Virus record (IMG/VR): IMGVR_UViG_3300012893_000001
Location: 1-60,215 of that record
DNA length: 60,215 bases
Origin: a virus
Lineage: Duplodnaviria; Caudoviricetes
Direction: 5' to 3' (one strand)
Position numbers and translations under genes: made by a program. Positions 1-60,215 of this stretch are shown here, piece by piece (the first letter of the stretch is position 1; every line of letters starts with the position of its first letter). The notes under the pieces were generated by a model that had not been told where the DNA came from, ran no database searches, and was given only the letters and a program-made list of their open reading frames with translations.

Positions 1-132
1 AACCCGCTGGAGCATACCGCCATCAAATATATTGCACGTCGTAAACCGGAAAGCCGCATTCAGGATCTGGAAAAGGCTATCCACACTATCCAGCTGTTAA
101 TTGAATGGGAAAAAGAAAATGTCAAAGACTAA
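1..132 (+). CDS. C-terminal part of DUF3310 (T7 gp1.7-like) protein, 5' truncated
   Basis: Frame 1 reads NPLEHTAIKYIARRKPESRIQDLEKAIHTIQLLIEWEKENVKD*; the IKY..R...DLEKA motif is typical of the family. Confidence 0.7.
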   Translation, partial: NPLEHTAIKYIARRKPESRIQDLEKAIHTIQLLIEWEKENVKD

Positions 133-514
133 ATACTTTGATTTACCGGAAGGGGTAACACCTGCTGATATCGCTGCCGCTGCCGACTTACCCCTCGTAG
201 ACCGCCGGGCGGAGCGAGCGGCGGCGCTCACGGAGTTGACAGGATTATCCGGGCCTCGTGAGTCGGCAAACTACGGTGATGGACTGGTGCCGTTCACAGG
301 GAACGCTACGCAGTTTTTCAGGAAACTGATTGCGGCATACCCGACCCGAAGGACAACGGAGCCGTACCGCACGCCGGACGGGGTTACCACTCAGGTGATG
401 ACGGACACGTCCAACGGAAGGAATACCGTGGTGGCGATGTGGCAACGGGCTAAAGGTTACGCCGAAGGCGTCTATTTTTTAAGAGAAAAGGATATGTGGA
501 ATGCCAAAGACTAA
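119..514 (+). CDS. hypothetical protein
   Basis: ATG at 119 (MSKTKY) overlaps the upstream gene end; coupled to rdgC. Confidence 0.65.
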   Translation: MSKTKYFDLPEGVTPADIAAAADLPLVDRRAERAAALTELTGLSGPRESANYGDGLVPFTGNATQFFRKLIAAYPTRRTTEPYRTPDGVTTQVMTDTSNGRNTVVAMWQRAKGYAEGVYFLREKDMWNAKD

Positions 515-1412
515 CGTCACCGTGCTAAAGCTGCACGACGAGTACGAAGCTGATCGTTTCCTGTCTGGGATTCAGGCAAAACTGGAAGCGTGCCAGTATA
601 CGCCGTGCGCTGCCGGGAATGAACACGCCACAGGATTCATTGAGCCGGATATAGAAAAGCCGGACGTGTTCACCCGCGTGCATAACGACATCATCTACGC
701 CCGCATCATGGTGGAAACACGCAAGGTGCCCGATAAGGTTGCCAATGCCATGGCCGCTAAACGCATCGCTAAGATTGAGCTTGACGGGCGGAAGGTCAGC
801 GTTGACCAGCAGTTGCAGATCATGGCGCAGGTCAAAGCCGAACTGTGGGAAAACATCAGCCCGGAATACACCCAGTACTGGGTGGCAATCGACGCGGCCA
901 ATCGCCTGACATACTACTTTGCGCCGGGCGCTAAGTCAGAAGACATCAGCGGGCTGTTGCGCAAGGCGTTCGAATCATGGCCGGTAGAAACGCCATGGGA
1001 CGCAATCGGTCTGAATGAAGCCGTGGGCAAGTATATCAACGGCGTAGATATCGGCTTTTACATTGACCTGATCGACACGCTGGATATTGGGCGCGGCAAG
1101 AAGACAGCCAAGTTCCGGGGGTGTGAAGACCTGCGGTCAGTCGCCATCCAGAAAAGCTGGGTAGACATGCCGCAGATGCAGAAGGTCGGCATCTTCTTCC
1201 CGGATCTGGAGCTGGACGCCGACGTAACGTTACATGGTCACTTCCAGTTCGAACGTGAGTTTAAAGAAGACGACGAAGAACTGTATGACTCACACGGGGC
1301 TTTTGCTGACGTCATTCTCGGTCAGGACACCACGTCTAAGATGTTCGGCCTAATCCGCCGTATCGCGGCCAAGCACGTCCCAGCCGGGACAACTAAGAAG
1401 GTGACACGCTGA
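501..1412 (+). CDS. rdgC: recombination-associated protein RdgC
   Basis: 303 aa; TGFIEP...ETRKVP...VKAEL...WVAID pattern and size match RdgC. Confidence 0.8.
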   Translation: MPKTNVTVLKLHDEYEADRFLSGIQAKLEACQYTPCAAGNEHATGFIEPDIEKPDVFTRVHNDIIYARIMVETRKVPDKVANAMAAKRIAKIELDGRKVSVDQQLQIMAQVKAELWENISPEYTQYWVAIDAANRLTYYFAPGAKSEDISGLLRKAFESWPVETPWDAIGLNEAVGKYINGVDIGFYIDLIDTLDIGRGKKTAKFRGCEDLRSVAIQKSWVDMPQMQKVGIFFPDLELDADVTLHGHFQFEREFKEDDEELYDSHGAFADVILGQDTTSKMFGLIRRIAAKHVPAGTTKKVTR

Positions 1413-1942
1413 TGCAAACTATCGACCAGATCATTGACGGTATCCTCAAAGCCGAAGGGGGCTACGTCAACAATCCGAATGACAACGGTGGACCGACCAA
1501 CTTCGGGATAACCGCAGCCACATACGCGGCGAACGGATTCCGGGATAACGTGCGGGATATGACCGAAATACAGGCGTATGAAATTTACCGTAAACAGTAC
1601 GTTATCGCGCCGGGCTTCGATAAGGTCATCACGTACTCATCGCCTATCGCGGCGGAGCTGGTGGATACCGGCGTGAATATGGGCACCGGCACGGCGGGTA
1701 AATTCCTCCAGCGTTCACTCAACGCGCTGACCGGAGCAGGGCTTGTGGTGGACGGCAAGGTCGGCCCCACGACACTGAACGTATTAAAAAGTTTCCTCAA
1801 TGCGCGCAATGGCACCGGGGAACAGGTGTTACTTAAAGCGCTGAATTCACTGCAATGCGCCCGCTACATTGAGTTGGTGGAGCAGAATGCAAAACAACGA
1901 TCCTTTATATATGGCTGGATTGCGAACCGGGTGGTGATATAA
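1412..1942 (+). CDS. endolysin, glycoside hydrolase family 108 with peptidoglycan-binding domain
   Basis: EGGYVNNPNDNGGPTNFGIT, DTGVNMG, LVVDGKVGPTT, FIYGWIANRV. Confidence 0.92.
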   Translation: MQTIDQIIDGILKAEGGYVNNPNDNGGPTNFGITAATYAANGFRDNVRDMTEIQAYEIYRKQYVIAPGFDKVITYSSPIAAELVDTGVNMGTGTAGKFLQRSLNALTGAGLVVDGKVGPTTLNVLKSFLNARNGTGEQVLLKALNSLQCARYIELVEQNAKQRSFIYGWIANRVVI

Positions 1943-2007
1943 TGCGCTTCTGGGATTACGTAGTTTTAGCGGTAGTCCTCCTCATCGTGTGGATTCTACT
2001 CAGATAA
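1942..2007 (+). CDS. 21-aa single-TM micropeptide
   Basis: TAATG coupling to the endolysin; MRFWDYVVLAVVLLIVWILLR*. Confidence 0.5.
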   Translation: MRFWDYVVLAVVLLIVWILLR

Positions 2008-2018
2008 AGGAACATAGC

Positions 2019-2279
2019 ATGGTAGCGAAAAAGCACATCGGAAGTGCCGTTGTAGTCACGTTGGGTACGGTAGGTGCCATGTTCCAATTCTTCCCGGACG
2101 CCGTACTGGGGGCATGGCACATGATGCCTGACGATTTAAAAGCCTCACTGCCGCCTATCGCCGTGAAGTGGATCAGCTACGCGCTGTTCTTCCTGAGCGT
2201 TGTCGGGCGACTGTGGCCTCGTAAGGTACAGACCGATGGTAAAAGTGATAGTGGATCAGGTGGCGCGGGACATGATTAA
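2019..2279 (+). CDS. holin (2 TM)
   Basis: AAGGA RBS; two hydrophobic segments; W..MP.DLK..LP pattern; lies between endolysin and spanins. Confidence 0.7.
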   Translation: MVAKKHIGSAVVVTLGTVGAMFQFFPDAVLGAWHMMPDDLKASLPPIAVKWISYALFFLSVVGRLWPRKVQTDGKSDSGSGGAGHD

Positions 2280-2364
2280 ATTCCTGTGCATGTTGGCAGC
2301 GATAGCCTTTTTCTGTGGCGTCGCGGTAGCAGTGGGCTTTACCGTGGCGGTGTGCTATGCGTAG
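2272..2364 (+). CDS. 30-aa hydrophobic micropeptide
   Basis: MIKFLCMLAAIAFFCGVAVAVGFTVAVCYA*; overlaps the holin stop; GGGA upstream. Confidence 0.45.
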   Translation: MIKFLCMLAAIAFFCGVAVAVGFTVAVCYA

Positions 2365-2455
2365 CGCTATCCTTCAGATTATGGCTGGCGCTGCGATATA
2401 CTCCGTCGTTTTCTTCGTGACAATGGTGGTACTCAATGCTATCGACAATTTATAA
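2357..2455 (+). CDS. 32-aa hydrophobic micropeptide
   Basis: MRSAILQIMAGAAIYSVVFFVTMVVLNAIDNL*; overlaps both neighbours. Confidence 0.45.
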   Translation: MRSAILQIMAGAAIYSVVFFVTMVVLNAIDNL

Positions 2456-2732
2456 ATGGCTGGCGATTGCCGCCGCCGCCGCAGTAGGCATCTTCGGTAT
2501 CTGGGCAGCTGGCCGCTCCAATGGCAAAGCGACGGAAACGGTAGAGGCCACCAAGGAACAGATGACCGAGGTAGCACAGGACGCTGCCGCATCCGTGGAC
2601 GCCCAGCAAAAGGCGACTACAATACAGGTGTCAACCATTAAGGTGGCTAATGATGTTGCTACGAAAGTTAATGCTGGTGCTCCCGGTGCTGCTGCTGATG
2701 AGCTGCGGAACAAATGGAGTCGGGATAAGTAA
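2436..2732 (+). CDS. inner-membrane spanin (Rz-like)
   Basis: N-terminal TM followed by an Ala-rich helical periplasmic domain; overlaps a lipoprotein gene. Confidence 0.75.
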   Translation: MLSTIYKWLAIAAAAAVGIFGIWAAGRSNGKATETVEATKEQMTEVAQDAAASVDAQQKATTIQVSTIKVANDVATKVNAGAPGAAADELRNKWSRDK

Positions 2733-2907
2733 ACCGCCTGTCGTGAAGGTCATAGACACGGCGTGCAGCTGGACGAATTATATCTACATCAGCAAAGACG
2801 ACGTGTTGACCGACGGGACTGCCCGGCAGATCCTAGCCTATAACGAAACCCGACAGGAGAATTGTGATGGGAAAGGGACTGGGGCTGACCCGGCGAACGG
2901 GGGATAG
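2650..2907 (+). CDS. outer-membrane spanin lipoprotein (Rz1-like)
   Basis: Lipobox LLMSC; DTAC.W...I...D.LT..TARQI..HN/YN..C pattern; overlaps the i-spanin 3' end. Confidence 0.8.
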   Translation: MMLLRKLMLVLPVLLLMSCGTNGVGISKPPVVKVIDTACSWTNYIYISKDDVLTDGTARQILAYNETRQENCDGKGTGADPANGG

Positions 2908-3067
2908 CGTGTACATCGGTGAGGACATCGTGGTGACGGTGGACTCAGTGAGCGGGGGTGAGGTGAAGCTGACAATCAAAGCGCCCCCGGATGTGGCTAT
3001 CAATCGTGACGCGGCATACGTTGGCTTGAAAATCGCAGCCAGCAGGAAGAAAACTAAAGGGGCTTAG
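2867..3067 (+). CDS. csrA: carbon storage regulator CsrA/RsmA homologue
   Basis: LGLTRRTGDSVYIGEDIVVTV...EVKLTIKAPPDVAINRD aligns with [21 protein letters not shown]...VRIGVNAPKEVSVHREE. Confidence 0.85.
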   Translation: MGKGLGLTRRTGDSVYIGEDIVVTVDSVSGGEVKLTIKAPPDVAINRDAAYVGLKIAASRKKTKGA

Positions 3068-3080
3068 TGCCCCTTTTTTA
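3056..3080. terminator. bidirectional terminator at a convergence point
   Basis: AAAGGGGC-TTAGT-GCCCCTTT followed by a T-run, with A-rich sequence on the other side. Confidence 0.7.
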
Positions 3081-3300
3081 ATTGCTCAATTTCCAGTTTC
3101 AGGTACTGGATTTCTTTCAGCGCAGCGGCCAAGTCGGAAGCCAGCTGAATGAGGCGCTCATTGTCCAGACGTTCGTCCTTCTCTTTCTTGCGCTCATGGT
3201 ATTGGTTCAGTGCGTGACGCACGAGGTTATACAGACACGCCAGTGCCAGCAGCGTGATAGACGGGTTGCCACCTTTGAATAACTCCGAAATCTCAAGCAT
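3064..3300 (-). CDS. small membrane-anchored coiled-coil protein
   Basis: MLEISELF...ITLLALACLYNLV then a charged helical tail; start overlaps the upstream gene. Confidence 0.6.
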   Translation of the reverse strand: MLEISELFKGGNPSITLLALACLYNLVRHALNQYHERKKEKDERLDNERLIQLASDLAAALKEIQYLKLEIEQLKKGH

Positions 3301-3658
3301 GAGCCAAGTCCCACCATGTAGCCGCAGCACACAACCAGTAAATCGCGATTGTGATAGGCGAGTGGCTGAAATGATAGACCGTGGTGGCGAGGTACATCCA
3401 GAAAACCGCCGAGCCAAACGCAACGATCCAGTGAAGTGTGGTGTTGATAAAAAGCTTGGGACTGCGGGAGATTACGATTTGTGCCGAGCCTAACCCGAAT
3501 GCAGCGACAATCCATACTTGCGTCGGTGCCATCGTGGCAAGCTGTTCGGCCAGTGGCTGTTTAAATAGAATCATCATGACCGCCCATACAATGGCAATCA
3601 TGCCTACGACATTCTCAATCCGTGTGAGTCGTAACATCGTTTTATCGTCCGTAAGCAT
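3293..3658 (-). CDS. membrane protein, about 4 TM
   Basis: Four hydrophobic segments; GAGG RBS. Confidence 0.65.
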   Translation of the reverse strand: MLTDDKTMLRLTRIENVVGMIAIVWAVMMILFKQPLAEQLATMAPTQVWIVAAFGLGSAQIVISRSPKLFINTTLHWIVAFGSAVFWMYLATTVYHFSHSPITIAIYWLCAAATWWDLAHA

Positions 3659-3675
3659 TAGATACCCTCATGTTA

Positions 3676-4302
3676 TCAGGCGCGCAATGATTGGTCAAAA
3701 GCTGACGTAATAATGGCCGCTGTCCCTGCTGTTCTGCGCACCGCGAAAAACCATCCTATCGGTAGCATAGCAGCCAGCTGCCCCCTGTCTATTGAGGCTA
3801 GTCCTATTGTGAGCGCGATACCGGTCAGGCCGGAGCGCCACGTAGCGATGGCAAACCCTGACCCCGTGGCTACCGCAGCCGTCGGCCCTATCCATAATTC
3901 CATGGTGTCGGTCTGCGCGCTCGCGACGGTGACGGTGTAAGTGGCCTCGACCATGACCGAGATAAATGCGGGCTTGGTGGTAGATGTGGCTTGATATGCG
4001 GTAGCCAGCGCGAGTGAGCGTGCGGTAGGGGCTTGCGGGTTGATTGCCCGGGCGTCGGTGTACGTGTTGGCTGCGGCCAGTGTCGCAGTGTCACCGTTTG
4101 CCCGGGCTGTCGCTTCGGCGGTATCGGCAGCGCCCCGTGTCGCCGCCTCTGCGTTCACCAGCGACGTGGCGTTTGCGTTGGCTGACGATAGGGTTGACGC
4201 GTCCCCCGCAATGCGTGCGGCAATCTCTGCGTTGAGGTCGGCAGCAGATGCGCTCCCGGTTCCGTTGCGCAGGTTGATACTGGATTGGAATTTGGTGCTC
4301 AT
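3676..4302 (-). CDS. short fibre-like virion protein
   Basis: E..AR..(G/A)D coiled-coil stalk repeats and AN.YTD motif, then a beta-rich head. Confidence 0.55.
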   Translation of the reverse strand: MSTKFQSSINLRNGTGSASAADLNAEIAARIAGDASTLSSANANATSLVNAEAATRGAADTAEATARANGDTATLAAANTYTDARAINPQAPTARSLALATAYQATSTTKPAFISVMVEATYTVTVASAQTDTMELWIGPTAAVATGSGFAIATWRSGLTGIALTIGLASIDRGQLAAMLPIGWFFAVRRTAGTAAIITSAFDQSLRA

Positions 4303-4670
4303 CAGCTCACCCCCAACACGGTCAGGCGCATCTGGATATCCGCCGTCGCCATAATGTGGACAGAAGTTTGCCGGGATATTAGCCCGTAGATGTCCCGGAT
4401 AAATGCGAGGTCGCCAGTCGTTGCCGGGATTTCCACAGGGTCGCCCAGACCAAACCAGTTATCTGATCCGGTAGCGGCAGTGGTCAGCGTAGGGAATATA
4501 TTCACGGTAGTGCCAGCGTGCGCGGGCGTCACGGATGGGAATAGAAATTCAAATTCGAAATCTTCATACGCGGCCACAAGGGTCGGGGGCACGACAATGA
4601 TCTGCGGAGAACCGGCAGGGATTGTGACAAAGGTGTTTGCATCGGGGTACGAAAATATAGTGAAAGCCAT
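4302..4670 (-). CDS. hypothetical, probably structural, protein
   Basis: 122-aa beta-rich ORF; TGATG coupling to the next gene. Confidence 0.6.
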   Translation of the reverse strand: MAFTIFSYPDANTFVTIPAGSPQIIVVPPTLVAAYEDFEFEFLFPSVTPAHAGTTVNIFPTLTTAATGSDNWFGLGDPVEIPATTGDLAFIRDIYGLISRQTSVHIMATADIQMRLTVLGVS

Positions 4671-4753: not shown

Positions 4754-7700
4754 TTACTTTTTGAGTTCTCGCCAATATTTGTCATTGACAGTCTTGGCAA
4801 TCTCATTTTTCTTCACGGTAATGGCGTCCAGCTGCGTGCGTTTTTCCTCCGCCGTTAACGTCGAGTCAGCCAGAATATCTTTAGACTGGCGGGATAAATC
4901 ACTGAGACGTTTCGCGGCTTTCTCAATGCCTTTGCTCGCGCCAATTTCGTCAGCGTATTTATCCCGGGCAGCTTCCACCCCATCATAATCGTGACGCTCT
5001 TTGTACGTTTTGATGGTGGCATTCGCTTTGCGGGTCATCTGCTGCATATCGTAAACCCGGGACACGTATTTGCTGGACTTGTTATCCGGCTTGCGGAAGA
5101 TATCCGCCACCGGGTAGTCCCCTTCCGGGCGAGCCGGAGACACGTTGTCAGAGACTCCCATGCGGTACATGCTGTCAGCGGAGGCCAGCACATATTGCCC
5201 CACGCTGCCTGTGTATCCTTCCAGCAGATGCTGCAAACGCACTGGGCTGCGCAGGAAGTCCGGGAAGGACTCTGGCAGTTTCTTGGCGAGGTCGGCCAGC
5301 AGCTGCGGTGTGTACGCATCGGCTTGGTCAGGTGCTTCCTGATACTTCATGCCTTCGCTGACGATAGGTCTATCCATGAAGAAATCTTTGTTAAAGACAT
5401 CCTGCACGATAGGGCTGATCGCCTGCGGGATAGGGTTCATGGCAAAGGTATTCAGCGCCAGATCCTGCATGGAGTTCCAGAATACTTTATCGTCCCGCGT
5501 GGCCGCTTCATACCCACGTTCCAGAACGGTTCCGAACAGGGTGCCCACTTCGAACGGTTTAGGGATCTGCACGAAACCGCCCTGCGTTGGAATAATCCAG
5601 TAGTTGTTGCGCACCTGCTCATTGAGCGCCCAGTAGCGTTCGTCATCACGGTTCATCGCCATCAGCGCCATAGTACCGGCAGCAATCAGTGCGCCTTTCA
5701 ACATGAAGCTGCGGGAGTCATCTTTAGCACCACGCACCAGACGGTCAAAGCCCTGAATACGGGCGTTCATGAATGGCACGGTATTCAGGAAGAAACTTAG
5801 CACCTGACTGTCACCCCGGCGTGAAAAGTTCATCACGTCATTGGCTTGGTACGCGGCTTCCGTCACGCTGCCTGTCTTTTTCAGCACGTCATTATATACG
5901 GCCATGCGGGTGCCCATCTCGCCCGCTTCCAGTCCCTTCTCAAACCCGCCGACTAATTTATGTACGGATTTTTTCAGGAAATTTTCTTTGGTCATGCCGC
6001 GCAACTGTTTTGCCAGTGCGTCCGGGCGTGCCCCATCATACCCGCCAGAGAAGCCGCCGGACTGGCGGTAGGCGTGGACGTTGCCTGACTCCCGGATAGT
6101 GTCAATGGAACCTTTCAGTGCGGTGATGATCGGGCGCATGGTCAGGCTATCCGCAATAATCTGCCCTACGCCACGACGTCCCGCCGCCTGCGTCTGGGTC
6201 ACGTAGTTGCCCAGAATGTCACGGGTAATGTTACGCAGCACAAAGCCCGGCGTTGCGGTGACGGTGCGGGTCAGCAGCTGTTTAGGCCAGCCCAGTACAC
6301 GCATGATGGTATTCACCGTGCGCGGACCTACCTGATTGATGGCGCGCATCAGTGACGGGTCAGTCACCCGGTAATACTGGCGCTTGCCGTCGAACATGAC
6401 CGACACGATATCCTTGCCCACTGGCGGCGCAGTGGTGAACATTTTGCTGTACTCCTCTGACATGGTTTTATCCATGCCGTTGATGGAGATACCCAGCTCG
6501 TTCATTGCCTTTTTCATCTCGGCGTTTTTGATGTCAACCGGCTTAAACTGCACAGGGACTTTTTCCATCCCGATGCCTTCCGCCAGATCCACAACCATCT
6601 GGCCGACCCGGTTGTTGTAGGAGGACTGGATCATGTGGCTGGCGTTGCGCAGGATATTGTTGATGATGTCAACTTTACCCGTGCCGCCTTTCAGCGTCTT
6701 GATGCCGGTGGACTGGTTCGTGAAACTGCGGCCAGCCCCGCCCGGCGCTGTGGTACGGTCAAGCTCGTCGGCCACACGGTACAATGGCACATAGTCATCC
6801 TTGTCCCAAATTTTACGGGCAGCAGGGTCTAGCGTGCCTGACTGCTCGGCAAAGTCCAGCAGCTCTGTTTTGAATTGCTGGTACTCTTTGTGTGCCTCAT
6901 TGAACGCCTTGCGCAACTCCGGCTTGCTGTTCACATAGCTGGTCACTTTGTCAACGTCTTCCTGCGTGTACAGATTTTCGCGCCCTTCTTTCAGCAGGCG
7001 GTTAGCACGGACGGCACCCGCCCAGTACTCCCACAGTGCCAGCTGATTGCCCTTCATTTTGGCGATAGGTTCGAAGATCTGCATCAGGCCTTTTGTGCCC
7101 GGGCGTGTCACGATATCCCCTTTCGGACTCCACATCGGCGTGCCGACATTCATCGCACTGGCAATGATTGAGTTAATCTGGCGGCTATTGGTCGCCATCT
7201 TATACGCGGACTCTGCGCCCACATTCAGGTCACCGCCGGTCTTCATGCGCTCATACTGAGCGATAGGGGACAAGTCATCCACCATGCTTTGATACGCGTT
7301 GTGCGCGGCTTCCTTGCGCACGTTGTTGTCCATGATGGCGTTGATGGTGGATGTAAGCGAGCCTTCTTCCACGTGCAGGACTTTGCGCATCCCCTCTTTG
7401 ATATCATCCGGCGCGACGGCATCCTCCACGCGACGGTCTTTGCGCAGGGAAGGCGACATATCATTCGGCGTCTCAAAGCGCATCGGGGCAATGCTTCGGC
7501 GCACATCGTCCGGGTCGATAGTCGTTTTACGCAGGTATTCGGTATTCGCCTTAACCAGATCGGCCACGTCTTGATACGTCGCACGGTCAGTCAACAGCCC
7601 GGCTTTTACCAGCATCTTGCGGATGGCTTCCAGAACCTGACGCACAACGCCAATCTTCTGCGCTTCCGCCGGGTTCTCCGCGACTGCCGCCACGACTTCC

Positions 7701-10700
7701 TCGGCAATCATGCGCTGGCCGTCCGGGGAATTCTGGTCATAGACGTCCGCATAGTTTTCGCGTACCTGTTTGAAGTACGGATCCAGACGTTTGTCTTTAC
7801 CTTCGGCTGCGGTGATCCTGTCCATCTGCGCATCGTACTGCTCTTTGGACAGGCGGGCGCGCAGGCCATAGTGCGCAATGATTTCGTGACGGAACTGCGC
7901 GTGTGCTTCTTCCTCACTGTGCAGGTTCTCGGCCACGGCAATGACTTCCACGCCGCCCGGGTTATAGAATGCCATGTATGTGCTGCCGTCGTCAGGCAAG
8001 CCCAGCTCAGACTGCTTTTCCACCACGGTGAATTTCAGATTCTCCGCGCCCTTCATGTCTTTGGTGAAAGACTGGTAGGCTTTGGTCACCTGCGCAGGCG
8101 TCAGGCTTTTCTTGCTCGACGGTGCGGACTTGGTGACTGACGGTATTTTCTTACTTAGGGTAGCGTGGTTTAAATCCTTCACCTGATTGTAAAGGTCGTA
8201 CACGGCTTTCGTCGTCTGGTAGCTCCCGGAGGAATTAGGGTTGTCTTTGATGCCATACGTCCCGTCATTGCGCTGGATAACTTGCCAGTGGTTGGGTGCG
8301 TCAGGTGTAAACCCACTAGCCACGATATCCACAGCGGAGCGCCCTTTCTGGCTGGCGATAGGCTTACGCATAGCCGCGCTTACTTTGGCCTGATCCACAA
8401 GATACTGGGCACGCGGGACGAATGCGTCAGACTCCGCAGCAGGCTTGGCGTCACGCATGGCGATCAGGTGTTTGCCGTACTCGACGCCCGTTTTCCCTAC
8501 GGTGTCCTGACGTAACGCATACGACCCCTGCACTTTTAATTGGTCGTGCCCGAATGGGCCGCGCTCAACTACCGCGCCTTTGTCCACGTACTGCCTGACG
8601 CGCTGCTCAATGTCTGCCGTTCCATCCAGACTGAGACTTTCCTTACTCAAGTGCTTTAACGCGTTAGCCCTAGCGGCGGGTTTCATTCCTTCTGTGAAAG
8701 ATTCCGCCTGACTGTTTTCCGGGGAATACGAGAGCCGAGCAACGACGTCGGCTTTACGTGCGGCAGCGGATTTCTTGCCCCAGTTACGATACGTCTCCAC
8801 ATACGCACGGTTGAATGCGGCAGAGCCTTCTTCGCCCGCGGCTCTTGCTGCGTCGAGTGCTGCGTCGGCGGCTTGGTCTTTCTGGTTGTCAGATAAATCT
8901 TTACGGATATGGCCCGGATTATTCACAAGCTGCGACATGGCCGCATCACTTGTTTTGTCCGTGTTGTTTTCCACCGCGTCTGCGTACTGATCGTAGAGTT
9001 TAGAATCTGGGGTAAGATGCGCGCCATACTTGCTGTGGAATTCATTATCTAACGCTTCGCGGGATTCGAATTCAGACAGGGGCTTACTAAGTGTGTGCGT
9101 AACCGCTTCCCGATAGCCTAACAGCCTTTCCGTTACGGTGTTGTTTACTGTTTCCGCAGGGGTAGCCTCTCTGATGCGCGGGGACTTGGCCGCTTCGGTA
9201 GGCCTGACTTCTTCCAGCGCGGCCACGTTGGCGTTACCGTTTTCATCAACCAGACGGGCAGCACGTCCCTGAATTTTATCCACGGTGTACTGGTTGCCAT
9301 TCCATTCGACTTTGGCACCCGGCGCGACACCACGATCAGCCGCGTCTTTCACCATCTGATTAGTGATCTCTACCGGGTTGCCTTTCTTCTTCGCGGAGAA
9401 CGGCACGGACGGTGCTTTAGGCGTGACAGGGGTTTCCTCCGCAGTCGATACGGATTCGCCCACGGTGGCGTCAGGCAGACGCGCAGCTTTCTGTGCGGCG
9501 GTTTCGCGCCCACGCTGCGCCATAGTCGGCTTCGCTTCTACAGCGGGCGCGACAATAGTGCTATCAGGCGCAGATGGAAGTGGTGGCAGTTTGATTCCAG
9601 CCACGTCTGGGGTTCTGTTGACCACAGGTGACTCGGCAGGCTGTACTTCACTGCCCACGACAGGCGTTTCAGTTGCATTGTTTTTATCCTCTACGACAGG
9701 CGCAACGCTATCGTTAATTGGTTTTGGAAGCGGCGGCAATTTGATTCCAGATACGTCTCCGGTTGCAGCCCGTACATCCGGTGCGGCAGTTTGTGCAACA
9801 GGTAATTCACGGCTAAAGACAGGCGTTTCAGTTGCATTTTTTTCACCCGGGAGTGGTGCGAGGTTAGAGAAGTCTGACGGTGGTTTGACGCCACGGGAAG
9901 CCATTGACGGGGCGCGTTCATCCACCGGGCTATTAATCTGAGTACGGTTAGTCATGTCAACCGGCGGCGCGATTTCGCCCGGCATTGCGATGACCGACGT
10001 TTTACCCGGGGCAGGGAGTCCCAGTGTTTCGCCCGGAGTGGGGCCGACGTCACCCTGTGCAAGCTGATCTTCCACGAGTTGCTGCGGAGTCTTTGAGTTC
10101 TCGCCACGCAATGCTGCGGCTACATCATCCGGCTGCTGGCGCAGATATGCCGGGATCTGCATCTGGTCAAGCCCATACCCCAGTGCCTTGGCCGCATCAC
10201 GCGGTTGCATGACCTGAGAGGCCAGCTGGCTAAGTGCGTCACCTTCGGCACCCGGTTGTGCCACCTGCTGCTTTAACGCATCCAGTGCGTCACGAGGCGC
10301 GGCACCGGCTTGGCGTTGCGCCTGATACGCTGCGAACTGGTCAGGCGTCACTTCTGGTTTAGGCGCGGCAGGAGGGGGCACCGTGCCCGCTTCCGCAGCC
10401 ATGGCATCATATTCGCCCTCCGGCACCGGCACGGTTTGGCCGGGCGCATTCTGGTTAACTGTGTCAGCCACCGTCTCACCAGACTTACCTGACAGCATAC
10501 CCGGGGCGTGGATAGTGCCGTGGATTGCGCCACCCGCACCTGCACCGACAATTCCGTTATACGCCACGTCTTTCAGAAATTCGCCTACGGTCATCTTGTC
10601 ATTAAGCACGCCGATGTCGTACCCGTTCTGCAACGCCTGCGTCACAGCTTCCTGCGCGCCTTCCGCGATAGCCGACTTGCCAAGGTCAGACAGCGCGTTC

Positions 10701-11545
10701 GCGCCCTTCTTCATGATCAGCCCGAGCGGGACGGCTTCGGTCAATGGCTCCATCGCAGCAAATACCGTGGCGCGGTCTTGAGCCTGCACAGGGTTCAAGC
10801 CTTTGTCGATACTATCCTGATAGTACTGACCGTAGGCCTGACCGGTCATTGTGCCCAGACCGACAGCCGGGGACCGCGTCAGCATAGCCAGACCGATAGG
10901 GCCAGCCATGTCCGCCGTCGCGCCGGTGATTGCGCTCACGATACCTTTAGCGGACCATTCGTCAGTGTGCGGGGTGTTGGCGGCAATCTCACCGGAGAGT
11001 TTCAGGGCTTTGTCCCGGGAGGCCACGAAGTCAGGATCCTGCTGCAAATTGGCGACTTTCATTTTGTCAATCATTGCGTAGAGCGCTTTATTTTTAGCGA
11101 GCTTTGTCTCATACGAATCATTGTCATTCGGCAGCACTTGGTCAGGCGTCACACCCAGCTGCGCCATCTGCGCGGTTGCACCTTCCACGCCTGCCTGTGC
11201 AGCTTTGGCGAGGTTCTGCGCGGTCATACCCGTCACGCCCTGCGCGGTATTCTGCGCCTGTACCGCGATACCCTGCTTAATACCTTCCCATGCGCGCTGT
11301 GCGCGGGTAGGCATATTGGAGAGGGATTTGGTTACGACGTTATACCACGACGCTTCTGGCGCGTCACCGGAGGTGTCTGCGGGCGCGGTAGGCAGCGGAG
11401 GAAGCTTTAAGGATTTGAGGTCAGGCAGCTTGATACCAGACGTTGCCGCAGGCGTAGCCGGGGTCTGATTGGTGTCGTCCTGTGTGGCCGATGGCAGCGG
11501 AGGAAGGTTCAGGCTGGCAATCGGTGGCAATTTGATTTCTGGCAT
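4754..11545 (-). CDS. large polyvalent internal virion/ejection protein (zincin-like HExxxH domain, C-terminal LPD38-like domain)
   Basis: 2263 aa; HEIIAHYGLR near 7871-7888; C-terminal YWIIP...IPKPFE.G.LF...ER..E and DFF..RPIV motifs; last gene of the ejection cluster. Confidence 0.75.
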   Translation of the reverse strand: MPEIKLPPIASLNLPPLPSATQDDTNQTPATPAATSGIKLPDLKSLKLPPLPTAPADTSGDAPEASWYNVVTKSLSNMPTRAQRAWEGIKQGIAVQAQNTAQGVTGMTAQNLAKAAQAGVEGATAQMAQLGVTPDQVLPNDNDSYETKLAKNKALYAMIDKMKVANLQQDPDFVASRDKALKLSGEIAANTPHTDEWSAKGIVSAITGATADMAGPIGLAMLTRSPAVGLGTMTGQAYGQYYQDSIDKGLNPVQAQDRATVFAAMEPLTEAVPLGLIMKKGANALSDLGKSAIAEGAQEAVTQALQNGYDIGVLNDKMTVGEFLKDVAYNGIVGAGAGGAIHGTIHAPGMLSGKSGETVADTVNQNAPGQTVPVPEGEYDAMAAEAGTVPPPAAPKPEVTPDQFAAYQAQRQAGAAPRDALDALKQQVAQPGAEGDALSQLASQVMQPRDAAKALGYGLDQMQIPAYLRQQPDDVAAALRGENSKTPQQLVEDQLAQGDVGPTPGETLGLPAPGKTSVIAMPGEIAPPVDMTNRTQINSPVDERAPSMASRGVKPPSDFSNLAPLPGEKNATETPVFSRELPVAQTAAPDVRAATGDVSGIKLPPLPKPINDSVAPVVEDKNNATETPVVGSEVQPAESPVVNRTPDVAGIKLPPLPSAPDSTIVAPAVEAKPTMAQRGRETAAQKAARLPDATVGESVSTAEETPVTPKAPSVPFSAKKKGNPVEITNQMVKDAADRGVAPGAKVEWNGNQYTVDKIQGRAARLVDENGNANVAALEEVRPTEAAKSPRIREATPAETVNNTVTERLLGYREAVTHTLSKPLSEFESREALDNEFHSKYGAHLTPDSKLYDQYADAVENNTDKTSDAAMSQLVNNPGHIRKDLSDNQKDQAADAALDAARAAGEEGSAAFNRAYVETYRNWGKKSAAARKADVVARLSYSPENSQAESFTEGMKPAARANALKHLSKESLSLDGTADIEQRVRQYVDKGAVVERGPFGHDQLKVQGSYALRQDTVGKTGVEYGKHLIAMRDAKPAAESDAFVPRAQYLVDQAKVSAAMRKPIASQKGRSAVDIVASGFTPDAPNHWQVIQRNDGTYGIKDNPNSSGSYQTTKAVYDLYNQVKDLNHATLSKKIPSVTKSAPSSKKSLTPAQVTKAYQSFTKDMKGAENLKFTVVEKQSELGLPDDGSTYMAFYNPGGVEVIAVAENLHSEEEAHAQFRHEIIAHYGLRARLSKEQYDAQMDRITAAEGKDKRLDPYFKQVRENYADVYDQNSPDGQRMIAEEVVAAVAENPAEAQKIGVVRQVLEAIRKMLVKAGLLTDRATYQDVADLVKANTEYLRKTTIDPDDVRRSIAPMRFETPNDMSPSLRKDRRVEDAVAPDDIKEGMRKVLHVEEGSLTSTINAIMDNNVRKEAAHNAYQSMVDDLSPIAQYERMKTGGDLNVGAESAYKMATNSRQINSIIASAMNVGTPMWSPKGDIVTRPGTKGLMQIFEPIAKMKGNQLALWEYWAGAVRANRLLKEGRENLYTQEDVDKVTSYVNSKPELRKAFNEAHKEYQQFKTELLDFAEQSGTLDPAARKIWDKDDYVPLYRVADELDRTTAPGGAGRSFTNQSTGIKTLKGGTGKVDIINNILRNASHMIQSSYNNRVGQMVVDLAEGIGMEKVPVQFKPVDIKNAEMKKAMNELGISINGMDKTMSEEYSKMFTTAPPVGKDIVSVMFDGKRQYYRVTDPSLMRAINQVGPRTVNTIMRVLGWPKQLLTRTVTATPGFVLRNITRDILGNYVTQTQAAGRRGVGQIIADSLTMRPIITALKGSIDTIRESGNVHAYRQSGGFSGGYDGARPDALAKQLRGMTKENFLKKSVHKLVGGFEKGLEAGEMGTRMAVYNDVLKKTGSVTEAAYQANDVMNFSRRGDSQVLSFFLNTVPFMNARIQGFDRLVRGAKDDSRSFMLKGALIAAGTMALMAMNRDDERYWALNEQVRNNYWIIPTQGGFVQIPKPFEVGTLFGTVLERGYEAATRDDKVFWNSMQDLALNTFAMNPIPQAISPIVQDVFNKDFFMDRPIVSEGMKYQEAPDQADAYTPQLLADLAKKLPESFPDFLRSPVRLQHLLEGYTGSVGQYVLASADSMYRMGVSDNVSPARPEGDYPVADIFRKPDNKSSKYVSRVYDMQQMTRKANATIKTYKERHDYDGVEAARDKYADEIGASKGIEKAAKRLSDLSRQSKDILADSTLTAEEKRTQLDAITVKKNEIAKTVNDKYWRELKK
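9576..9838 (-). repeat. degenerate ~50-aa tandem repeat (NATETPV...GIKLPPLP)
   Basis: 21-bp GACAGGCGTTTCAGTTGCATT at 9659 and 9818; GGAAGyGGyGGCArTTTGATTCCAG at 9576 and 9726. Confidence 0.8.
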
Positions 11546-44488: not shown

Positions 44489-44692
44489 ATGTCACTTATC
44501 GAAATCACACAAGCTGCAATGCGTACCGCCAAAGCCATACCGGGCGCGGATATCACCGTCCATGAGTCAGGCAGCGGACGCAATTTCCGTGTCGAAATAA
44601 AGCTCAATGGCGAGCAATACTTTGAGTCTGGCACCCCTCAGTACCTCCTCGGCTTCCTCCGTGGCTTCACCGCGCGAGGTACGCAATCATGA
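44489..44692 (+). CDS. hypothetical protein
   Basis: GGAG RBS; MSLIEIT. Confidence 0.6.
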   Translation: MSLIEITQAAMRTAKAIPGADITVHESGSGRNFRVEIKLNGEQYFESGTPQYLLGFLRGFTARGTQS

Positions 44693-44952
44693 AAGAATTC
44701 ACCGCAATTATCAGCACTGCCAAAATCGGCACGCCTTCCCGCTTTATCCTGTACCTCATCCACCACAACCATGTGGCAGCTGCGAAGTACCCTGACCAGC
44801 AGCACATGACCTATGAAGAACTGGCCGACTCCACAGGATTAAGCCATGACCGCGTGCGTAAAGCGTGCGCCCCACTCGTTAAAGCTGGCCTCATCACGAT
44901 TGAGTACCGTCGTAACAAAGGCCCGGCGCTGATCAGACTGGTGCAACCATGA
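44689..44952 (+). CDS. winged-helix DNA-binding protein
   Basis: TYEELADSTGLS...VRKA...LVKAGLI. Confidence 0.75.
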   Translation: MKEFTAIISTAKIGTPSRFILYLIHHNHVAAAKYPDQQHMTYEELADSTGLSHDRVRKACAPLVKAGLITIEYRRNKGPALIRLVQP

Positions 44953-45416
44953 AAGCGTATTTCTTTGACGGCCCGCTCGCCGGTAACGCCTCCGAGATGT
45001 CGGTGATAGAGCAACAGTCCATGACTATCATGGTTAACTACCTGTGGGCGGGCCTCCACCAACACACCGCCCAGTATTTCCCGCTGTATGAGGGGACGCT
45101 GGCCGGGCTTCCGGTCTGTGTGATGACCACACGCACGGACATTGCAGAACGCGACCTGATCAATCTGATTGACGAGGCCATGGCAATACAGCTCACCGCG
45201 CCCGATGAGGAGGCGCTGGCAGATCGTACGTCATTACAGCTTGACTCCGGCATACTGGACACCCTGTCCATGAATTATATCCGGCGGATGGCGCTCCTGA
45301 ATAAACGCCTGCTGGAGATTCAAAATGAAAGTGTCCATAGCGATAAACGACGTGATGCTGAAAGAAGTGATAAGCGCATTGGTGGCCGCAGCGGTCAGCC
45401 CGACGGCGCTCAATAA
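44949..45416 (+). CDS. hypothetical protein
   Basis: FFDGPLAG start motif; ATGA overlap. Confidence 0.6.
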   Translation: MKAYFFDGPLAGNASEMSVIEQQSMTIMVNYLWAGLHQHTAQYFPLYEGTLAGLPVCVMTTRTDIAERDLINLIDEAMAIQLTAPDEEALADRTSLQLDSGILDTLSMNYIRRMALLNKRLLEIQNESVHSDKRRDAERSDKRIGGRSGQPDGAQ

Positions 45417-53041: not shown

Positions 53042-53066
53042 AAGACCTCCGCGTTAAGATGAGCCA

Positions 53067-53118
53067 ACAATAAACTTTAAAATAAAAAGTTGCAAAGATT
53101 TATTTTTGGTGTTTTACT
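53067..53118. promoter_or_regulatory. divergent promoter pair with palindromic operator
   Basis: AAATAA-AAAG-TTGCAA-AGAT-TTATTT (53080-53105); TTTACT (+) and TATTGT (-) each 17 nt from the central TTGCAA. Confidence 0.65.
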
Positions 53119-59602: not shown

Positions 59603-59899
59603 ATGCAGAAATTTGCGAGAGTGGTTGAACATAACGATGTGCAAATCCTGATCACCGCCGAGTGGGACGATGACGCGGTGCCCCTAATTAAGCTTACGTG
59701 GGTTACGACAGACAAGGTTGAGCTGGATTTATGCCTGCGTCAGGTCGATGAAAGTCTGACCGACGAGGCTAAGGATAAATGGCTCGCTGAGACACTGGCC
59801 TCGGACGGAGTGGTGCAGGTGGCGCACGGTGTCGCGGATAAAGTTACCGGACTGGATATGGCGGCCTGCGCTGCGGCACTGACTCAGGGGGACGAGTAA
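59603..59899 (+). CDS. hypothetical protein
   Basis: AAGGA RBS; 98 aa. Confidence 0.6.
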   Translation: MQKFARVVEHNDVQILITAEWDDDAVPLIKLTWVTTDKVELDLCLRQVDESLTDEAKDKWLAETLASDGVVQVAHGVADKVTGLDMAACAAALTQGDE

Positions 59900-60215
59900 T
59901 GTGCAAACACACGGGGATACTTGGCGCGCCATGCCAGCCGTGCGCTCTGGCGGATAAAGAGGCCCATGAGAAAACAGCGTACTGCCCGCGCCACCCTGAC
60001 GTGCTGAAAGCCAAATACCACAACGAATGCGCGGCGTGCGTTAAGTCCCGTGCGAAAGGCGAGGGTATGCCGGGGCTTGCGTGCCTCGACATGGACGCCA
60101 TCCACGCGAATGCCTACCGCGCTGGGCGGTTAATCATGAATTCCACCCCGGAAGATCGGGAAGCGGCCAAGCTCTTGGCTATGTCGCTGGTAGACCCGGA
60201 TGGCACGGCTTTCGG
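59899..60215 (+). CDS. Cys-rich protein, 3' truncated (possibly the N-terminus of the DUF3310 gene at position 1)
   Basis: TAATG coupling; MCKH...C..C...C..H...C..C; open to the window end. Confidence 0.55.
   Translation, partial: MCKHTGILGAPCQPCALADKEAHEKTAYCPRHPDVLKAKYHNECAACVKSRAKGEGMPGLACLDMDAIHANAYRAGRLIMNSTPEDREAAKLLAMSLVDPDGTAF

What the first reader, a model, noticed from the sequence alone, without database searches (positions are those of the whole stretch)
1412..3067. Phage CsrA ends a lysis cassette that follows the replication genes: candidate translational lysis timer
Seen: the lysis genes are not in the - strand morphogenesis operon. They lie on the + strand, coupled behind rdgC in the polymerase/SSB block, and the last gene is an intact CsrA homologue (LTRR strand, Arg kept in INRD) overlapping the o-spanin. 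Established: CsrA binds ANGGA/GGA in 5' leaders and represses translation. Inference: a lysis cassette transcribed with middle genes needs post-transcriptional delay, and the co-encoded CsrA could supply it or rewire the host Csr carbon network. The holin RBS contains AAGGA. This assumes the two window ends are contiguous in the genome.
Basis: partly seen in the sequence, partly recalled or inferred. Interest (0 to 1): 0.75.

Follow-up and report, generated by a model that had tools for sequence, protein, structure and literature searches.

The report
Phage CsrA gene ending lysis cassette
A virulent podophage carries an intact copy of the bacterial RNA-binding regulator CsrA as the last gene of its lysis gene cluster, an arrangement shared by all its known relatives, but whether it times lysis or reprograms the host is still untested.

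Summary
On the + strand lie rdgC (501-1412), a GH108 endolysin (1412-1942), a holin (2019-2279), i- and o-spanins (2436-2732, 2650-2907) and an intact CsrA homologue (2867-3067; Pfam PF02599, E 5.7e-15). The csrA stop codon sits in a bidirectional terminator.

The window is a complete uncultured phage, distantly related to Escherichia phage PTXU04 (Xuquatrovirus).

In 11 of 11 genomes of this lineage, csrA is the last cistron and its start overlaps the preceding lysis gene. It is the second most conserved full-length protein between the window and PTXU04.

The PTXU04 orthologue (gp28) is already published as a csrA homologue whose knockdown shrinks plaques. The gene is therefore a new member of a known kind.

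The lysis-timer idea is only partly supported.
- For: PTXU04-type relatives carry a conserved GGA hairpin next to the holin ribosome-binding site, plus a conserved promoter-like site upstream.
- Against: the window's own holin leader has no such element. Its AAGGA is uninformative, because 60 of 100 called genes have GGA there. More distant phage CsrA genes examined sit among early or recombination genes, not lysis genes.

Odds: about 0.35 for a lysis-mRNA regulator and 0.30 for host Csr takeover.

The parts
501..1412 (+). rdgC-like recombination-associated gene. Its stop overlaps the endolysin start.
   Evidence: PF04381 E 4.7e-14; phrog_724 E 3.6e-24; 28.6% identical to PTXU04 gp31
1412..1942 (+). 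Endolysin: GH108 domain plus a peptidoglycan-binding domain
   Evidence: PF05838 E 4.8e-22, PF09374 E 4e-17; phrog_315; 58% identical to PTXU04 gp30
1942..2007 (+). Candidate 21-aa hydrophobic mini-ORF filling the endolysin-holin spacer. It ends at the holin ribosome-binding site.
   Evidence: Read from the sequence. By eye it resembles the N-terminal membrane helix of the 114-aa holins of csrA-less relatives. MAFFT did not align it. Not shown to be expressed.
2019..2279 (+). Holin (86 aa, DUF7940 type)
   Evidence: PF25612 E 3.6e-11; phrog_13249 E 3.9e-15; homologues in L094 and L095
2436..2732 (+). i-spanin (Rz-like)
   Evidence: phrog_1026 E 5e-15; homologues in L093-L095
2650..2907 (+). 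o-spanin (Rz1-like lipoprotein), overlapping the i-spanin
   Evidence: phrog_1275 E 2.3e-22; LLMSC motif; homologues in L093-L095 and in 32 of the 80 endolysin-homologue loci, which carry no csrA apart from PTXU04's own L009
2867..3067 (+). csrA homologue (66 aa from ATG 2867; GTG 2864 is an alternative start). It is the last cistron and overlaps the o-spanin by 41 nt.
   Evidence: PF02599 55.5 bits, E 5.7e-15; phrog_9500; solved RsmE and CsrA structures; invariant family residues kept; overlap
3056..3076 (.). Bidirectional intrinsic-terminator-like hairpin holding the csrA stop codon in its loop
   Evidence: 8-bp stem with a T run on both strands. The same arrangement is seen in PTXU04, Bas95, Pondi and L093-L095.
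3064..3658 (-). Two convergent conserved membrane-protein genes of unknown function: 78 aa (one membrane helix plus coiled coil, 3064-3300) and 121 aa (about four membrane helices, 3293-3658)
   Evidence: Homologues of PTXU04 gp27 and gp26. One or both were found in 6 of the 7 close metagenome loci; L095 ends before them. No PHROG function.
53054..53083 (+). The only sigma-70-like + strand site upstream of the replication-lysis-csrA unit
   Evidence: TTAAGA-18-TAAAAT, 9 of 12 matches. A consensus match only.

Best explanation
Shown by sequence: 2867-3067 encodes a genuine, intact CsrA-family RNA-binding protein. It is a core gene of a lineage of virulent Xuquatrovirus-like podophages. It is the last cistron of the long + strand unit that runs from the replication genes through rdgC and the lysis cassette. 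Its start lies inside the end of the last lysis gene, so it is probably translationally coupled to that gene. Its stop lies in the terminator.

Inferred mechanism: like other CsrA proteins, it binds GGA motifs in mRNA leaders as a dimer and blocks ribosome entry. I consider its most likely primary target to be the phage's own lysis mRNA, and the holin leader in particular. Because CsrA is made from the same message as the holin, it would feed back on holin (and its own) translation. That would limit the rate of holin accumulation and so set or stretch the time to lysis for a cassette that is transcribed with middle genes. Host CsrA could act on the same sites early in infection.

The target and the effect on timing are inferred, not shown. 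For the window itself no specific binding site can be named.
For: Identity: Pfam, PHROG and PDB matches, with the invariant residues kept.

Linkage: csrA follows the lysis genes and overlaps the preceding one by 1-41 nt in 11 of 11 genomes. These are the window, PTXU04, Bas95, Pondi and L093-L099. This holds whether the preceding gene is the o-spanin (4 genomes) or the holin (7 genomes).

Selection: 62.5% identity to PTXU04 gp28. Among the 39 of 92 PTXU04 proteins that match the window, only the major capsid protein (71.2%) is higher at full length. The large terminase is 51.6% and rdgC 28.6%.

Candidate operator in relatives:
- All 7 PTXU04-type holin leaders carry a 3-4 bp hairpin with an A[A/G]GGA[C/U] hexaloop 8-10 nt before the GGA of the ribosome-binding site.
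- Three pairs are kept in 7 of 7 sequences, and one pair swaps G-C to C-G (4 versus 3). Sliding the pairing register removes it.
- RNAfold places the GGA in the loop in PTXU04 and Bas95.
- In PTXU04, 7 of 92 genes combine a GGA in the ribosome-binding site with a GGA in an upstream hairpin loop of at least 4 bp. Only 3 have that hairpin 20-40 nt before the start, and the holin is one of them.

Promoter in relatives: TTAACA-17-TATATT lies inside the endolysin 3' end of PTXU04 (10 of 12 matches). Both hexamers are invariant in 7 of 7 PTXU04-type sequences, including 4 wobble positions, while 5 of 6 wobble positions in the spacer vary. An early-active promoter there would make translational restraint of the holin useful.

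Precedent: host CsrA sets the delay between colicin E2 synthesis and translation of its lysis gene (PMC5916893, abstract).

Phenotype: knockdown of PTXU04 gp28 reduces plaque size. gp28 is among seven genes whose expression was toxic or interfered with infection (PMC11879866, passages).
Against: - The window's own holin leader lacks the hairpin and the promoter.
- Its GGA count (positions -66, -28 and -11) is ordinary. The strand averages 14.2 GGA per kb, and 14 of 100 called genes have the same two-GGA layout.
- The three window-type leaders (window, L094, L095) differ in length and sequence and share no motif. A conserved protein without a conserved operator in its own sub-lineage is awkward for this model.
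- The whole neighbourhood is syntenic, so conserved position may be inheritance only.
- CsrA is encoded downstream of its supposed target. It cannot pre-exist the holin message; only feedback is possible.
- The hairpin stem is short, and the seven sequences are few lineages.
- The hairpin could serve host CsrA, RNA processing or something else.
- Plaque-size reduction is the generic mild phenotype in that screen (PMC11879866, passages). A guide on the csrA start also sits on the 3' end of the overlapping holin gene (my inference).
- Other phage csrA genes sit in early or recombination regions or in the head module.
Confidence: 0.35

Rival explanations
1. Host takeover. The phage CsrA adds to or replaces host CsrA activity. 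It would bind host GGA leaders or titrate the CsrB/CsrC decoy RNAs, and so hold the infected cell in a CsrA-high state (glycolysis on; storage, biofilm and possibly immune systems off). Its place behind the lysis genes would then be inherited gene order with no functional meaning.
For: - The RNA-binding residues are those of cellular CsrA, so host GGA sites should be bound.
- A temperate Pseudomonas phage CsrA-domain protein (Bci) changes host quorum-sensing gene expression, motility, biofilm and infection curves (PMC7546807, passages).
- The PTXU04 authors cite host manipulation, including of immune systems, as the proposed role (PMC11879866, passages).
- gp28 is among the genes reported as toxic or interfering when expressed in E. 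coli (same passages).
- In other phages csrA sits in early operons beside the repressor and recombination genes: 4 of 5 annotated records. Of 20 immediate neighbours in 9 further loci, 0 are lysis genes and 5 are DNA-metabolism genes.
- No operator is conserved in the window-type lysis leaders.
Against: - It is the last gene of a roughly 10-kb middle unit, not an early gene.
- It is a core gene, conserved more than the terminase and portal proteins across phages whose other proteins have diverged to 23-53%. Host-tuning accessory genes are usually variable (my own knowledge).
- The clade is old and phage-specific. It has an N-terminal M-x-K-G extension and a basic tail.
- No close copy was found among the species-representative bacterial genomes scanned. 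The best match was 58% identity, over the core only.
Confidence: 0.3
2. Regulator of other phage messages. The phage CsrA acts on phage transcripts other than the holin. It might damp translation of replication or middle genes as late genes take over, or protect or destabilise particular phage mRNAs.
For: - GGA-rich stretches exist elsewhere on sense strands. Window 101-500 has 16 GGA in 400 nt, against a mean of 5.6 (sd 2.65); only 10 of 2991 windows reach 16.
- PTXU04 44581-44980 has 17 GGA. There the gp46 leader carries a 7-bp hairpin with an AAUGGA loop plus GGAGGA at the ribosome-binding site.
- CsrA proteins are known to both repress translation and alter mRNA stability (recalled, not from a call).
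Against: - The GGA-rich stretches are not at corresponding places in the two phages.
- The window stretch lies in an ORF with no homologue in the relatives.
- Simple hairpin-GGA sites are fewer than in shuffled sequence: 247 against about 323.
- No target can be named.
Confidence: 0.15
3. Interference with host CsrA through mixed dimers. The phage subunit would pair with host CsrA subunits and change or poison their activity, instead of acting as an independent regulator.
For: CsrA proteins are intertwined dimers (recalled). The core of the phage protein aligns without gaps to the solved proteins. The toxicity or interference on expression would fit.
Against: No evidence bears on mixed dimers. 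All RNA-binding residues are kept, which a pure poison subunit would not need.
Confidence: 0.05

Closest known systems
Escherichia phage PTXU04 gp28 (Xuquatrovirus) and its copies in phages Pondi and HelliStehle/Bas95
   Same: Orthologue at 61-63% identity. Same position after the holin, before the terminator and convergent to the gp27/gp26 homologues. Same M-x-K-G-L N-terminus and basic tail. Published as a csrA homologue, 'Semi-fit', with smaller plaques on knockdown (PMC11879866).
   Different: In those phages csrA directly overlaps the holin and no spanin genes lie between them. Their holin leader has the GGA hairpin and an upstream promoter-like site that the window lacks. There is no nucleotide-level similarity, and only 39 of 92 proteins are shared.
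Host CsrA control of the colicin E2 lysis gene (cel)
   Same: A lysis gene is co-transcribed with earlier genes, and CsrA sets the delay before it is translated (PMC5916893, abstract). This is the working model proposed here.
   Different: There the regulator is the host's and release comes from sequestration of CsrA. Here the regulator is encoded by the phage on the same message. Nothing has been measured.
E. coli CsrA and Pseudomonas RsmE/RsmA (Pfam PF02599)
   Same: Same domain, same size, same first-strand L-x-L-T-R-R motif and the same critical Arg.
   Different: Three extra N-terminal residues. Gly replaces the family's Ile/Val at the third core position. The C-terminal helix region is divergent, and the tail is partly dictated by the terminator stem. 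By my count it shares about 20 of 55 aligned residues with E. coli CsrA in the alignment printed.
Bci, the 123-aa CsrA-domain protein of temperate Pseudomonas phages (AUS531phi, phi297 and F116 groups)
   Same: A phage-borne CsrA domain at 49-53% identity over residues 6-52. Deleting it changes infection curves (PMC7546807, passages).
   Different: A temperate phage. The gene sits in the early region beside the repressor and recombination genes. The protein is longer, with an extra C-terminal part. Its reported effects are on host quorum sensing, motility and biofilm.
Lessievirus (Bcep22-like) CsrA, e.g. phage JC1 gp47
   Same: A phage-borne Pfam CsrA domain (PMC9144972, passages).
   Different: It is encoded between the portal and major capsid genes and may be virion-associated. 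Its authors call it a moron gene.

Membership tests
CsrA/RsmA family (Pfam PF02599) | Match to the family profile above the curated threshold | tested here: met
   55.5 bits against a cutoff of 27, E 5.7e-15, covering profile positions 2-48 of 53
CsrA/RsmA family (Pfam PF02599) | RNA-binding residues of the first strand (L-x-L-x-R-R) and the critical Arg of the fifth strand. The numbering L2, L4, R6, R7 and R44 is recalled from the literature, not from a call. | tested here: met
   L-G-L-T-R-R aligns to L-I-L-T-R-R/K, and the Arg of I-N-R-D aligns to the Arg of V-H-R-E. The four invariant columns of 44 sequences (L5, R9, A39, R47) are kept.
CsrA/RsmA family (Pfam PF02599) | Small single-domain protein of about 55-75 residues | tested here: met
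   66 aa, with one matched stretch
CsrA/RsmA family (Pfam PF02599) | Intertwined homodimer | not testable with these tools
It needs size-exclusion analysis or a solved structure.
CsrA/RsmA family (Pfam PF02599) | Sequence-specific binding of GGA-containing RNA | not testable with these tools
   Needs EMSA, filter binding or CLIP
CsrA-timed lysis gene (ColE2 cel type) | A CsrA site (GGA, ideally in a hairpin loop) at or next to the lysis gene's ribosome-binding site | tested here: inconclusive
   In the window, GGA lies in the ribosome-binding site and at -28, but this layout is common (14 of 100 genes) and there is no hairpin. It is met by sequence in 7 of 7 PTXU04-type relatives.
CsrA-timed lysis gene (ColE2 cel type) | A measured delay of lysis that depends on CsrA | not testable with these tools
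   Needs one-step growth or lysis curves of a csrA mutant
Gram-negative holin-endolysin-spanin lysis cassette | Endolysin, holin, and an i-spanin/o-spanin pair in one cluster | tested here: met
   PHROG lysis families for all four, and Pfam for the endolysin and holin
Genus Xuquatrovirus | Nucleotide-level similarity to PTXU04 across the genome | tested here: not met
   Megablast of 1-4400 against the phage collection found nothing. Only 39 of 92 PTXU04 proteins match, at 23-71% identity. The window is a related but separate lineage with the same gene order.

The most novel reading that the evidence does not exclude
The phage-encoded CsrA and GGA sites in the holin message form a self-contained post-transcriptional lysis clock. 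Holin and CsrA are made from one message, and CsrA feeds back on the holin ribosome-binding site. In this lineage the extrinsic regulator would have taken over the role that an N-terminal membrane helix plays in the three-helix holins of csrA-less relatives. The window would keep that helix as a separate 21-aa peptide. This would be the first virus-encoded Csr-type timer of lysis.
Probability: 0.25. Interest if true: 0.75.

Novelty: new member of a known kind. Interest (0 to 1): 0.5.

Why it matters
Lysis timing decides burst size and phage fitness. Known timers are built into holins and antiholins or set by late transcription. A translational timer run by a virus-encoded copy of a global bacterial regulator would be a new layer of control. 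It would also give a function to a phage gene family that is widespread but whose role is unresolved; the PTXU04 authors state that its role in the phage life cycle had not been tested before their knockdown (PMC11879866).

The lineage has cultivable E. coli members (PTXU04, Pondi, Bas95). The concrete elements found here make the question directly testable: the loop-GGA hairpin, the promoter-like site and the overlapping start. If the protein instead acts on the host Csr network, it is a compact tool by which a virulent phage rewires central carbon and stress regulation.

Tried and rejected
Searches that found little or nothing:
- Megablast of 1-4400 against the phage collection: no match.
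- Pattern search of viral contigs with the single protein: none. With a 4-sequence alignment: only PTXU04's own record.
- Word-index protein search: only the window's own protein.
- Rfam on the whole window at gathering thresholds: no family, so no CsrB- or RsmZ-like decoy RNA by that test.
- Sequencing runs: no RNA holder listed.
- NAR 2026 survey of CsrA variation (PMC13443453): the word 'phage' occurs 0 times.

Complex prediction: a job with two copies of the phage CsrA and a 44-row alignment returned no verdict (score 0.39, mark 0.42). It counts neither for nor against dimerisation.

Motif scans:
- A genome-wide scan for GGA in loops of hairpins of at least 4 bp is not informative: 247 sites in the window and 230 in PTXU04, against about 323 and 313 in mononucleotide shuffles.
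- Leaders of the endolysin, holin and spanin genes in the window, L094 and L095, and of the o-spanin in L093: no shared GGA pattern.
- The three weak + strand promoter-like sites inside the window cassette (2373-2402, 2596-2623, 2753-2781; 9 of 12 matches each) are at the chance level (6 found, 4.3 expected). The last is not kept in L093-L095.

csrA linkage outside the lineage:
- 80 viral loci carry endolysins 47-60% identical to the window's. None of the 79 that are not PTXU04 has a CsrA in the fetched flanks (hmmsearch E<=1 on six-frame ORFs of 35 aa or more). The linkage is therefore not a property of the lysis module.
- The 41 more distant csrA loci (L100-L140) gave no tblastn match at E<=1e-3 to any window or PTXU04 lysis protein. 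In that printout I suppressed only the csrA rows of those loci.
- Scan of species-representative bacterial genomes: 109 relatives, of which 80 were kept. All are ordinary cellular-type CsrA, and none has the clade's N- and C-terminal marks.

Alignment: MAFFT did not align the 21-aa mini-ORF to the N-terminal helix of the long holins. That resemblance rests on inspection only.

Literature: the searches returned no paper whose listed title or abstract proposes a phage CsrA acting on a holin. I saw listings only, and supplements were closed.


Full report
WHAT THE WINDOW IS

The window is an entire virus record of 60,215 bases, classed as linear and rated 100% complete. Its G+C content is 55.3%.

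It has no nucleotide-level relative in the phage collection. At protein level it is a distant relative of Escherichia phage PTXU04, the type phage of Xuquatrovirus:
- 39 of 92 PTXU04 proteins match the window at E<=1e-5, with 23-71% identity.
- Gene order is the same.

PTXU04 and its relatives Pondi and HelliStehle/Bas95 are virulent podophages of E. coli. A recent paper says their biology 'has largely remained enigmatic' (bioRxiv 10.1101/2024.09.12.612763, passages; PMC6563267, passages).

From 501 to 3067 the + strand carries these genes:
- rdgC (501-1412).
- A GH108 endolysin with a peptidoglycan-binding domain (1412-1942).
- A DUF7940-type holin (2019-2279).
- An Rz-like i-spanin (2436-2732) and an Rz1-like o-spanin (2650-2907).
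- A 66-residue CsrA homologue (2867-3067).

Details of the arrangement:
- The rdgC stop and the endolysin start share a base.
- csrA begins 41 nt inside the o-spanin gene.
- The csrA stop codon lies in the loop of a hairpin that scores as an intrinsic terminator on both strands (3056-3076).
- Upstream on the same strand are an exonuclease, a Gp2.5-like single-strand-binding protein and a DNA polymerase.
- The structural genes are on the - strand.

The CsrA assignment is solid:
- Pfam PF02599 at twice the curated threshold.
- PHROG 'CsrA-like regulator'.
- Matches to nine distinct solved CsrA, RsmE and RsmA chain sequences.
- All four columns that are invariant across 44 homologues are retained.

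The ends of the window are nearly contiguous:
- The first 132 bases encode the C-terminal end of a homologue of PTXU04 gp32, the gene before rdgC in that phage.
- The open frame at the far end of the window is Cys-rich, like the gp32 N-terminus.
- The two frames do not join.
- An identical CsrA is on record on a contig 214 nt longer, so a short piece is missing.

HOW GENERAL IS THE ARRANGEMENT?

Close relatives of this CsrA are rare.
- The phage collection holds 56 records with a match. Only PTXU04 (two records), Pondi and Bas95 reach 59-63% identity over 93% or more of the protein.
- A full HMMER scan of 1.84 billion representative proteins gave 2241 hits at E<=1e-3. Only three representatives share the clade's marks, an N-terminal M-x-K-G-L and a basic tail.
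- A pattern scan of metagenome contigs gave 34 loci, seven of them at 55-63% identity over the full length (L093-L099).

In all seven loci, as far as each contig reaches, csrA is preceded by lysis genes. In six of them it is followed, on the other strand, by homologues of two conserved membrane proteins; L095 ends before that point.

Two sub-types exist:
- Window type (window, L093-L095): spanins lie between the holin and csrA.
- PTXU04 type (PTXU04, Pondi, Bas95, L096-L099): csrA directly overlaps the holin.

In 11 of 11 genomes the csrA start overlaps the end of the preceding lysis gene, by 1 to 41 nt.

Between the window and PTXU04, CsrA (62.5%) is more conserved than every other full-length match except the major capsid protein (71.2%). 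The large terminase is 51.6%, the portal-sized gp07 52.6% and rdgC 28.6%. This is a core gene under strong constraint, not a casual passenger.

THE LINKAGE BELONGS TO THIS LINEAGE, NOT TO PHAGE csrA OR TO THE LYSIS MODULE
- Of 80 viral loci with an endolysin 47-60% identical to the window's, none of the 79 that are not PTXU04 encodes a CsrA in the fetched flanks.
- Many of them share the o-spanin (32 loci) or the holin (6 loci).
- In F116, phi297, Providencia phage PSTCR8lys and Bacillus phage Dartukuta, csrA lies in the early region next to the repressor and recombination genes.
- In Vibrio phage 1.232.O, a distant relative of PTXU04, its neighbours have no lysis annotation or PHROG lysis match.
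- Twenty immediate neighbours of csrA in nine loci were scanned. None hit a lysis family, 5 hit DNA-metabolism families (Sak4-like, RecT-like, two exonucleases, thymidylate synthase), 1 hit 'other', 2 hit families of unknown function and 12 hit nothing.
- In Bcep22-like phages the gene lies between the portal and capsid genes (PMC9144972, passages).

One sober reading follows. Phage csrA is usually an early or middle gene kept with replication and recombination genes. In this lineage the lysis cassette happens to lie between rdgC and csrA.

EVIDENCE BEARING ON THE LYSIS-TIMER IDEA

- 60 of 100 window genes called by my heuristic script have GGA at -17..-5, and 14 of 100 also have a second GGA 9-45 nt upstream.
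- The strand carries 14.2 GGA per kb.
- The window's holin leader folds no better than shuffles (z 0.48; 136 of 200 shuffles fold at least as well), and its upstream GGA is not presented in a loop.

The PTXU04-type relatives are different.
- All seven holin leaders contain a short hairpin whose hexaloop reads A[A/G]GGA[C/U], 8-10 nt before the GGA of the ribosome-binding site.
- Three of its four pairs hold in 7 of 7 sequences. One pair changes G-C to C-G on both sides (4 versus 3). The outer pair is U-A or C-G in four sequences and unpaired in three.
- Pairing collapses when the register is slid: 89% of cells are paired, against 18-64%.
- The predicted folds of the PTXU04 and Bas95 leaders show this hairpin, with z -1.34 and -2.78.

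A loop GGA next to a ribosome-binding-site GGA is the classical CsrA target layout (recalled knowledge; the phrase 'GGA-containing hairpin loops' appears in the abstract of PMC13443453 listed). In PTXU04, 7 of 92 annotated genes combine a ribosome-binding-site GGA with an upstream GGA in a hairpin loop of at least 4 bp. Three have it 20-40 nt before the start: gp03, gp46 and the holin.

The PTXU04-type sequences also carry TTAACA-17-TATATT inside the 3' end of the endolysin gene (10 of 12 matches).
- Both hexamers are invariant in 7 of 7 sequences, including four codon third positions.
- Five of six third positions in the spacer vary.
- The window has TGAATT and TACATT at those places.

This suggests a dedicated holin-csrA transcript in that sub-type. 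Such a transcript would need translational restraint if the promoter fires early.

Two published results bear on the model.
- There is a precedent for CsrA as a lysis timer: it sets the delay before the colicin E2 lysis gene is translated (PMC5916893, abstract).
- Knockdown of PTXU04 gp28 gives smaller plaques, and gp28 is among seven genes that were toxic or interfered with infection when expressed (PMC11879866, passages).

That screen treats plaque shrinkage as a generic mild fitness effect. A guide on the csrA start also lies on the end of the overlapping holin gene (my inference).

WEIGHING

The identity of the gene and its conserved, coupled position are shown. That it binds GGA RNA follows from established family knowledge and the retained residues.

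That it acts on the holin message is inference. It is supported by the hairpin and the promoter-like site in one sub-lineage and by the ColE2 precedent. It is weakened by three points:
- No comparable element exists in the window's own sub-lineage.
- The whole region is syntenic, so conserved position may be inheritance only.
- More distant phage csrA genes examined lie outside lysis cassettes.

Because csrA lies downstream of the holin on the same message, the model can only be feedback that slows holin accumulation, not a pre-set block.

I put the lysis-mRNA model at about 0.35, host Csr-network takeover at about 0.30, regulation of other phage messages at about 0.15, and mixed-dimer interference at about 0.05. 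These are not exclusive of one another.

COMPARISON WITH WHAT IS KNOWN

The gene is an orthologue of an already published and phenotyped phage gene (PTXU04 gp28) and belongs to a catalogued phage family (phrog_9500). As an object it is a new member of a known kind.

This analysis adds:
- The strict conservation of the coupled end-of-lysis-cassette position across a wider and more diverged set of genomes.
- The rank of CsrA among the lineage's most conserved proteins.
- The loop-GGA hairpin and promoter-like site before the holin in the PTXU04 type.
- The demonstration that the window itself lacks both elements.

In the searches, no listed title or abstract proposes a phage CsrA acting on a holin.

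Noticed in passing
window 1942-2007 (+): A 21-aa hydrophobic mini-ORF starts on the last base of the endolysin stop and ends at the holin ribosome-binding site. It is in a different frame from the holin. csrA-less relatives (L016, L025, L033, L052, L064) have 114-aa holins with an extra N-terminal membrane helix that looks like this peptide. The window may therefore carry a split holin, or a free antiholin-like helix. MAFFT did not align it.
   Followed up: partly
window 2272-2364 and 2381-2455 (+): Two more tiny hydrophobic ORFs (30 and 24 aa) fill the gap between the holin and the i-spanin. The first overlaps the holin stop and the second overlaps the i-spanin start, so they could chain translational coupling through the cassette. 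No counterpart was seen in L094 or L095.
   Followed up: no
window 101-500 (+), with hairpin 459-471: 16 GGA in 400 nt, against a mean of 5.6 (sd 2.65). Only 10 of 2991 overlapping windows on this strand reach 16, and the GGAs fall in mixed codon phases. The stretch lies inside ORF 119-514, which has no family match and no homologue in the relatives. It ends in a weak terminator-like hairpin plus a T run just before rdgC. It may be chance, an attenuator, or a CsrA-binding stretch.
   Followed up: partly
window 3056-3076; L001 6189-6209; L095 3557-3582; L093 and L094 csrA 3' ends: In all 7 genomes examined, the csrA stop codon lies in the loop of the bidirectional terminator, and the last residues (K-K-G-R/A) are encoded by its 5' stem. 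The conserved basic tail may therefore be constrained by RNA structure as well as by protein function.
   Followed up: partly
window 3064-3300 and 3293-3658 (-): Two membrane proteins end the late strand and converge on csrA: 78 aa (one helix plus coiled coil) and 121 aa (about four helices). They are conserved as PTXU04 gp27 and gp26, and one or both appear in 6 of the 7 close metagenome loci. They have no family match. A role in lysis or superinfection exclusion is possible, especially since PTXU04-type phages show no spanins in the cassette.
   Followed up: no
L001 5618-5646 and 5716-5775 (PTXU04), with the matching parts of L002, L003, L096-L099: A conserved promoter-like site lies inside the endolysin gene. 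The 5' leader has two hairpins, the second showing A[A/G]GGA[C/U] in its loop. The first hairpin (GCGGCC...GGUCGU) is also conserved and is unexplained.
   Followed up: partly
PTXU04 record 44581-44980 (L091): This is the most GGA-dense 400 nt of the + strand (17 GGA). It spans the end of the methyltransferase gene and the gp46 leader, which has a 7-bp hairpin with an AAUGGA loop and GGAGGA at the ribosome-binding site. It is a second candidate CsrA site in that phage.
   Followed up: no
proteins P0002, P0004-P0007, P0010 and others: Many top hits in the representative library carry two or more CsrA domains in tandem (100-310 aa). One is a 6781-aa protein with six matched stretches, and another is 2399 aa with four. 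They may be single-chain 'dimers' or repeats; I did not look further.
   Followed up: no
window 4754-11545 (-): This 2263-aa protein is the homologue of PTXU04 gp25 (44% identity over 1216 residues). gp25 is the 'putative polyvalent protein' that scored as a Fit gene in the published knockdown screen.
   Followed up: no
window 1-132 and 59899-60215: The record is cut inside a gp32-like gene. The two ends are out of frame and lack the conserved middle of that protein. The PTXU04 pyrophosphatase gp33 and DNA polymerase gp35 gave no match in the window at E<=1e-5, although a polymerase of another PHROG match is present.
   Followed up: partly
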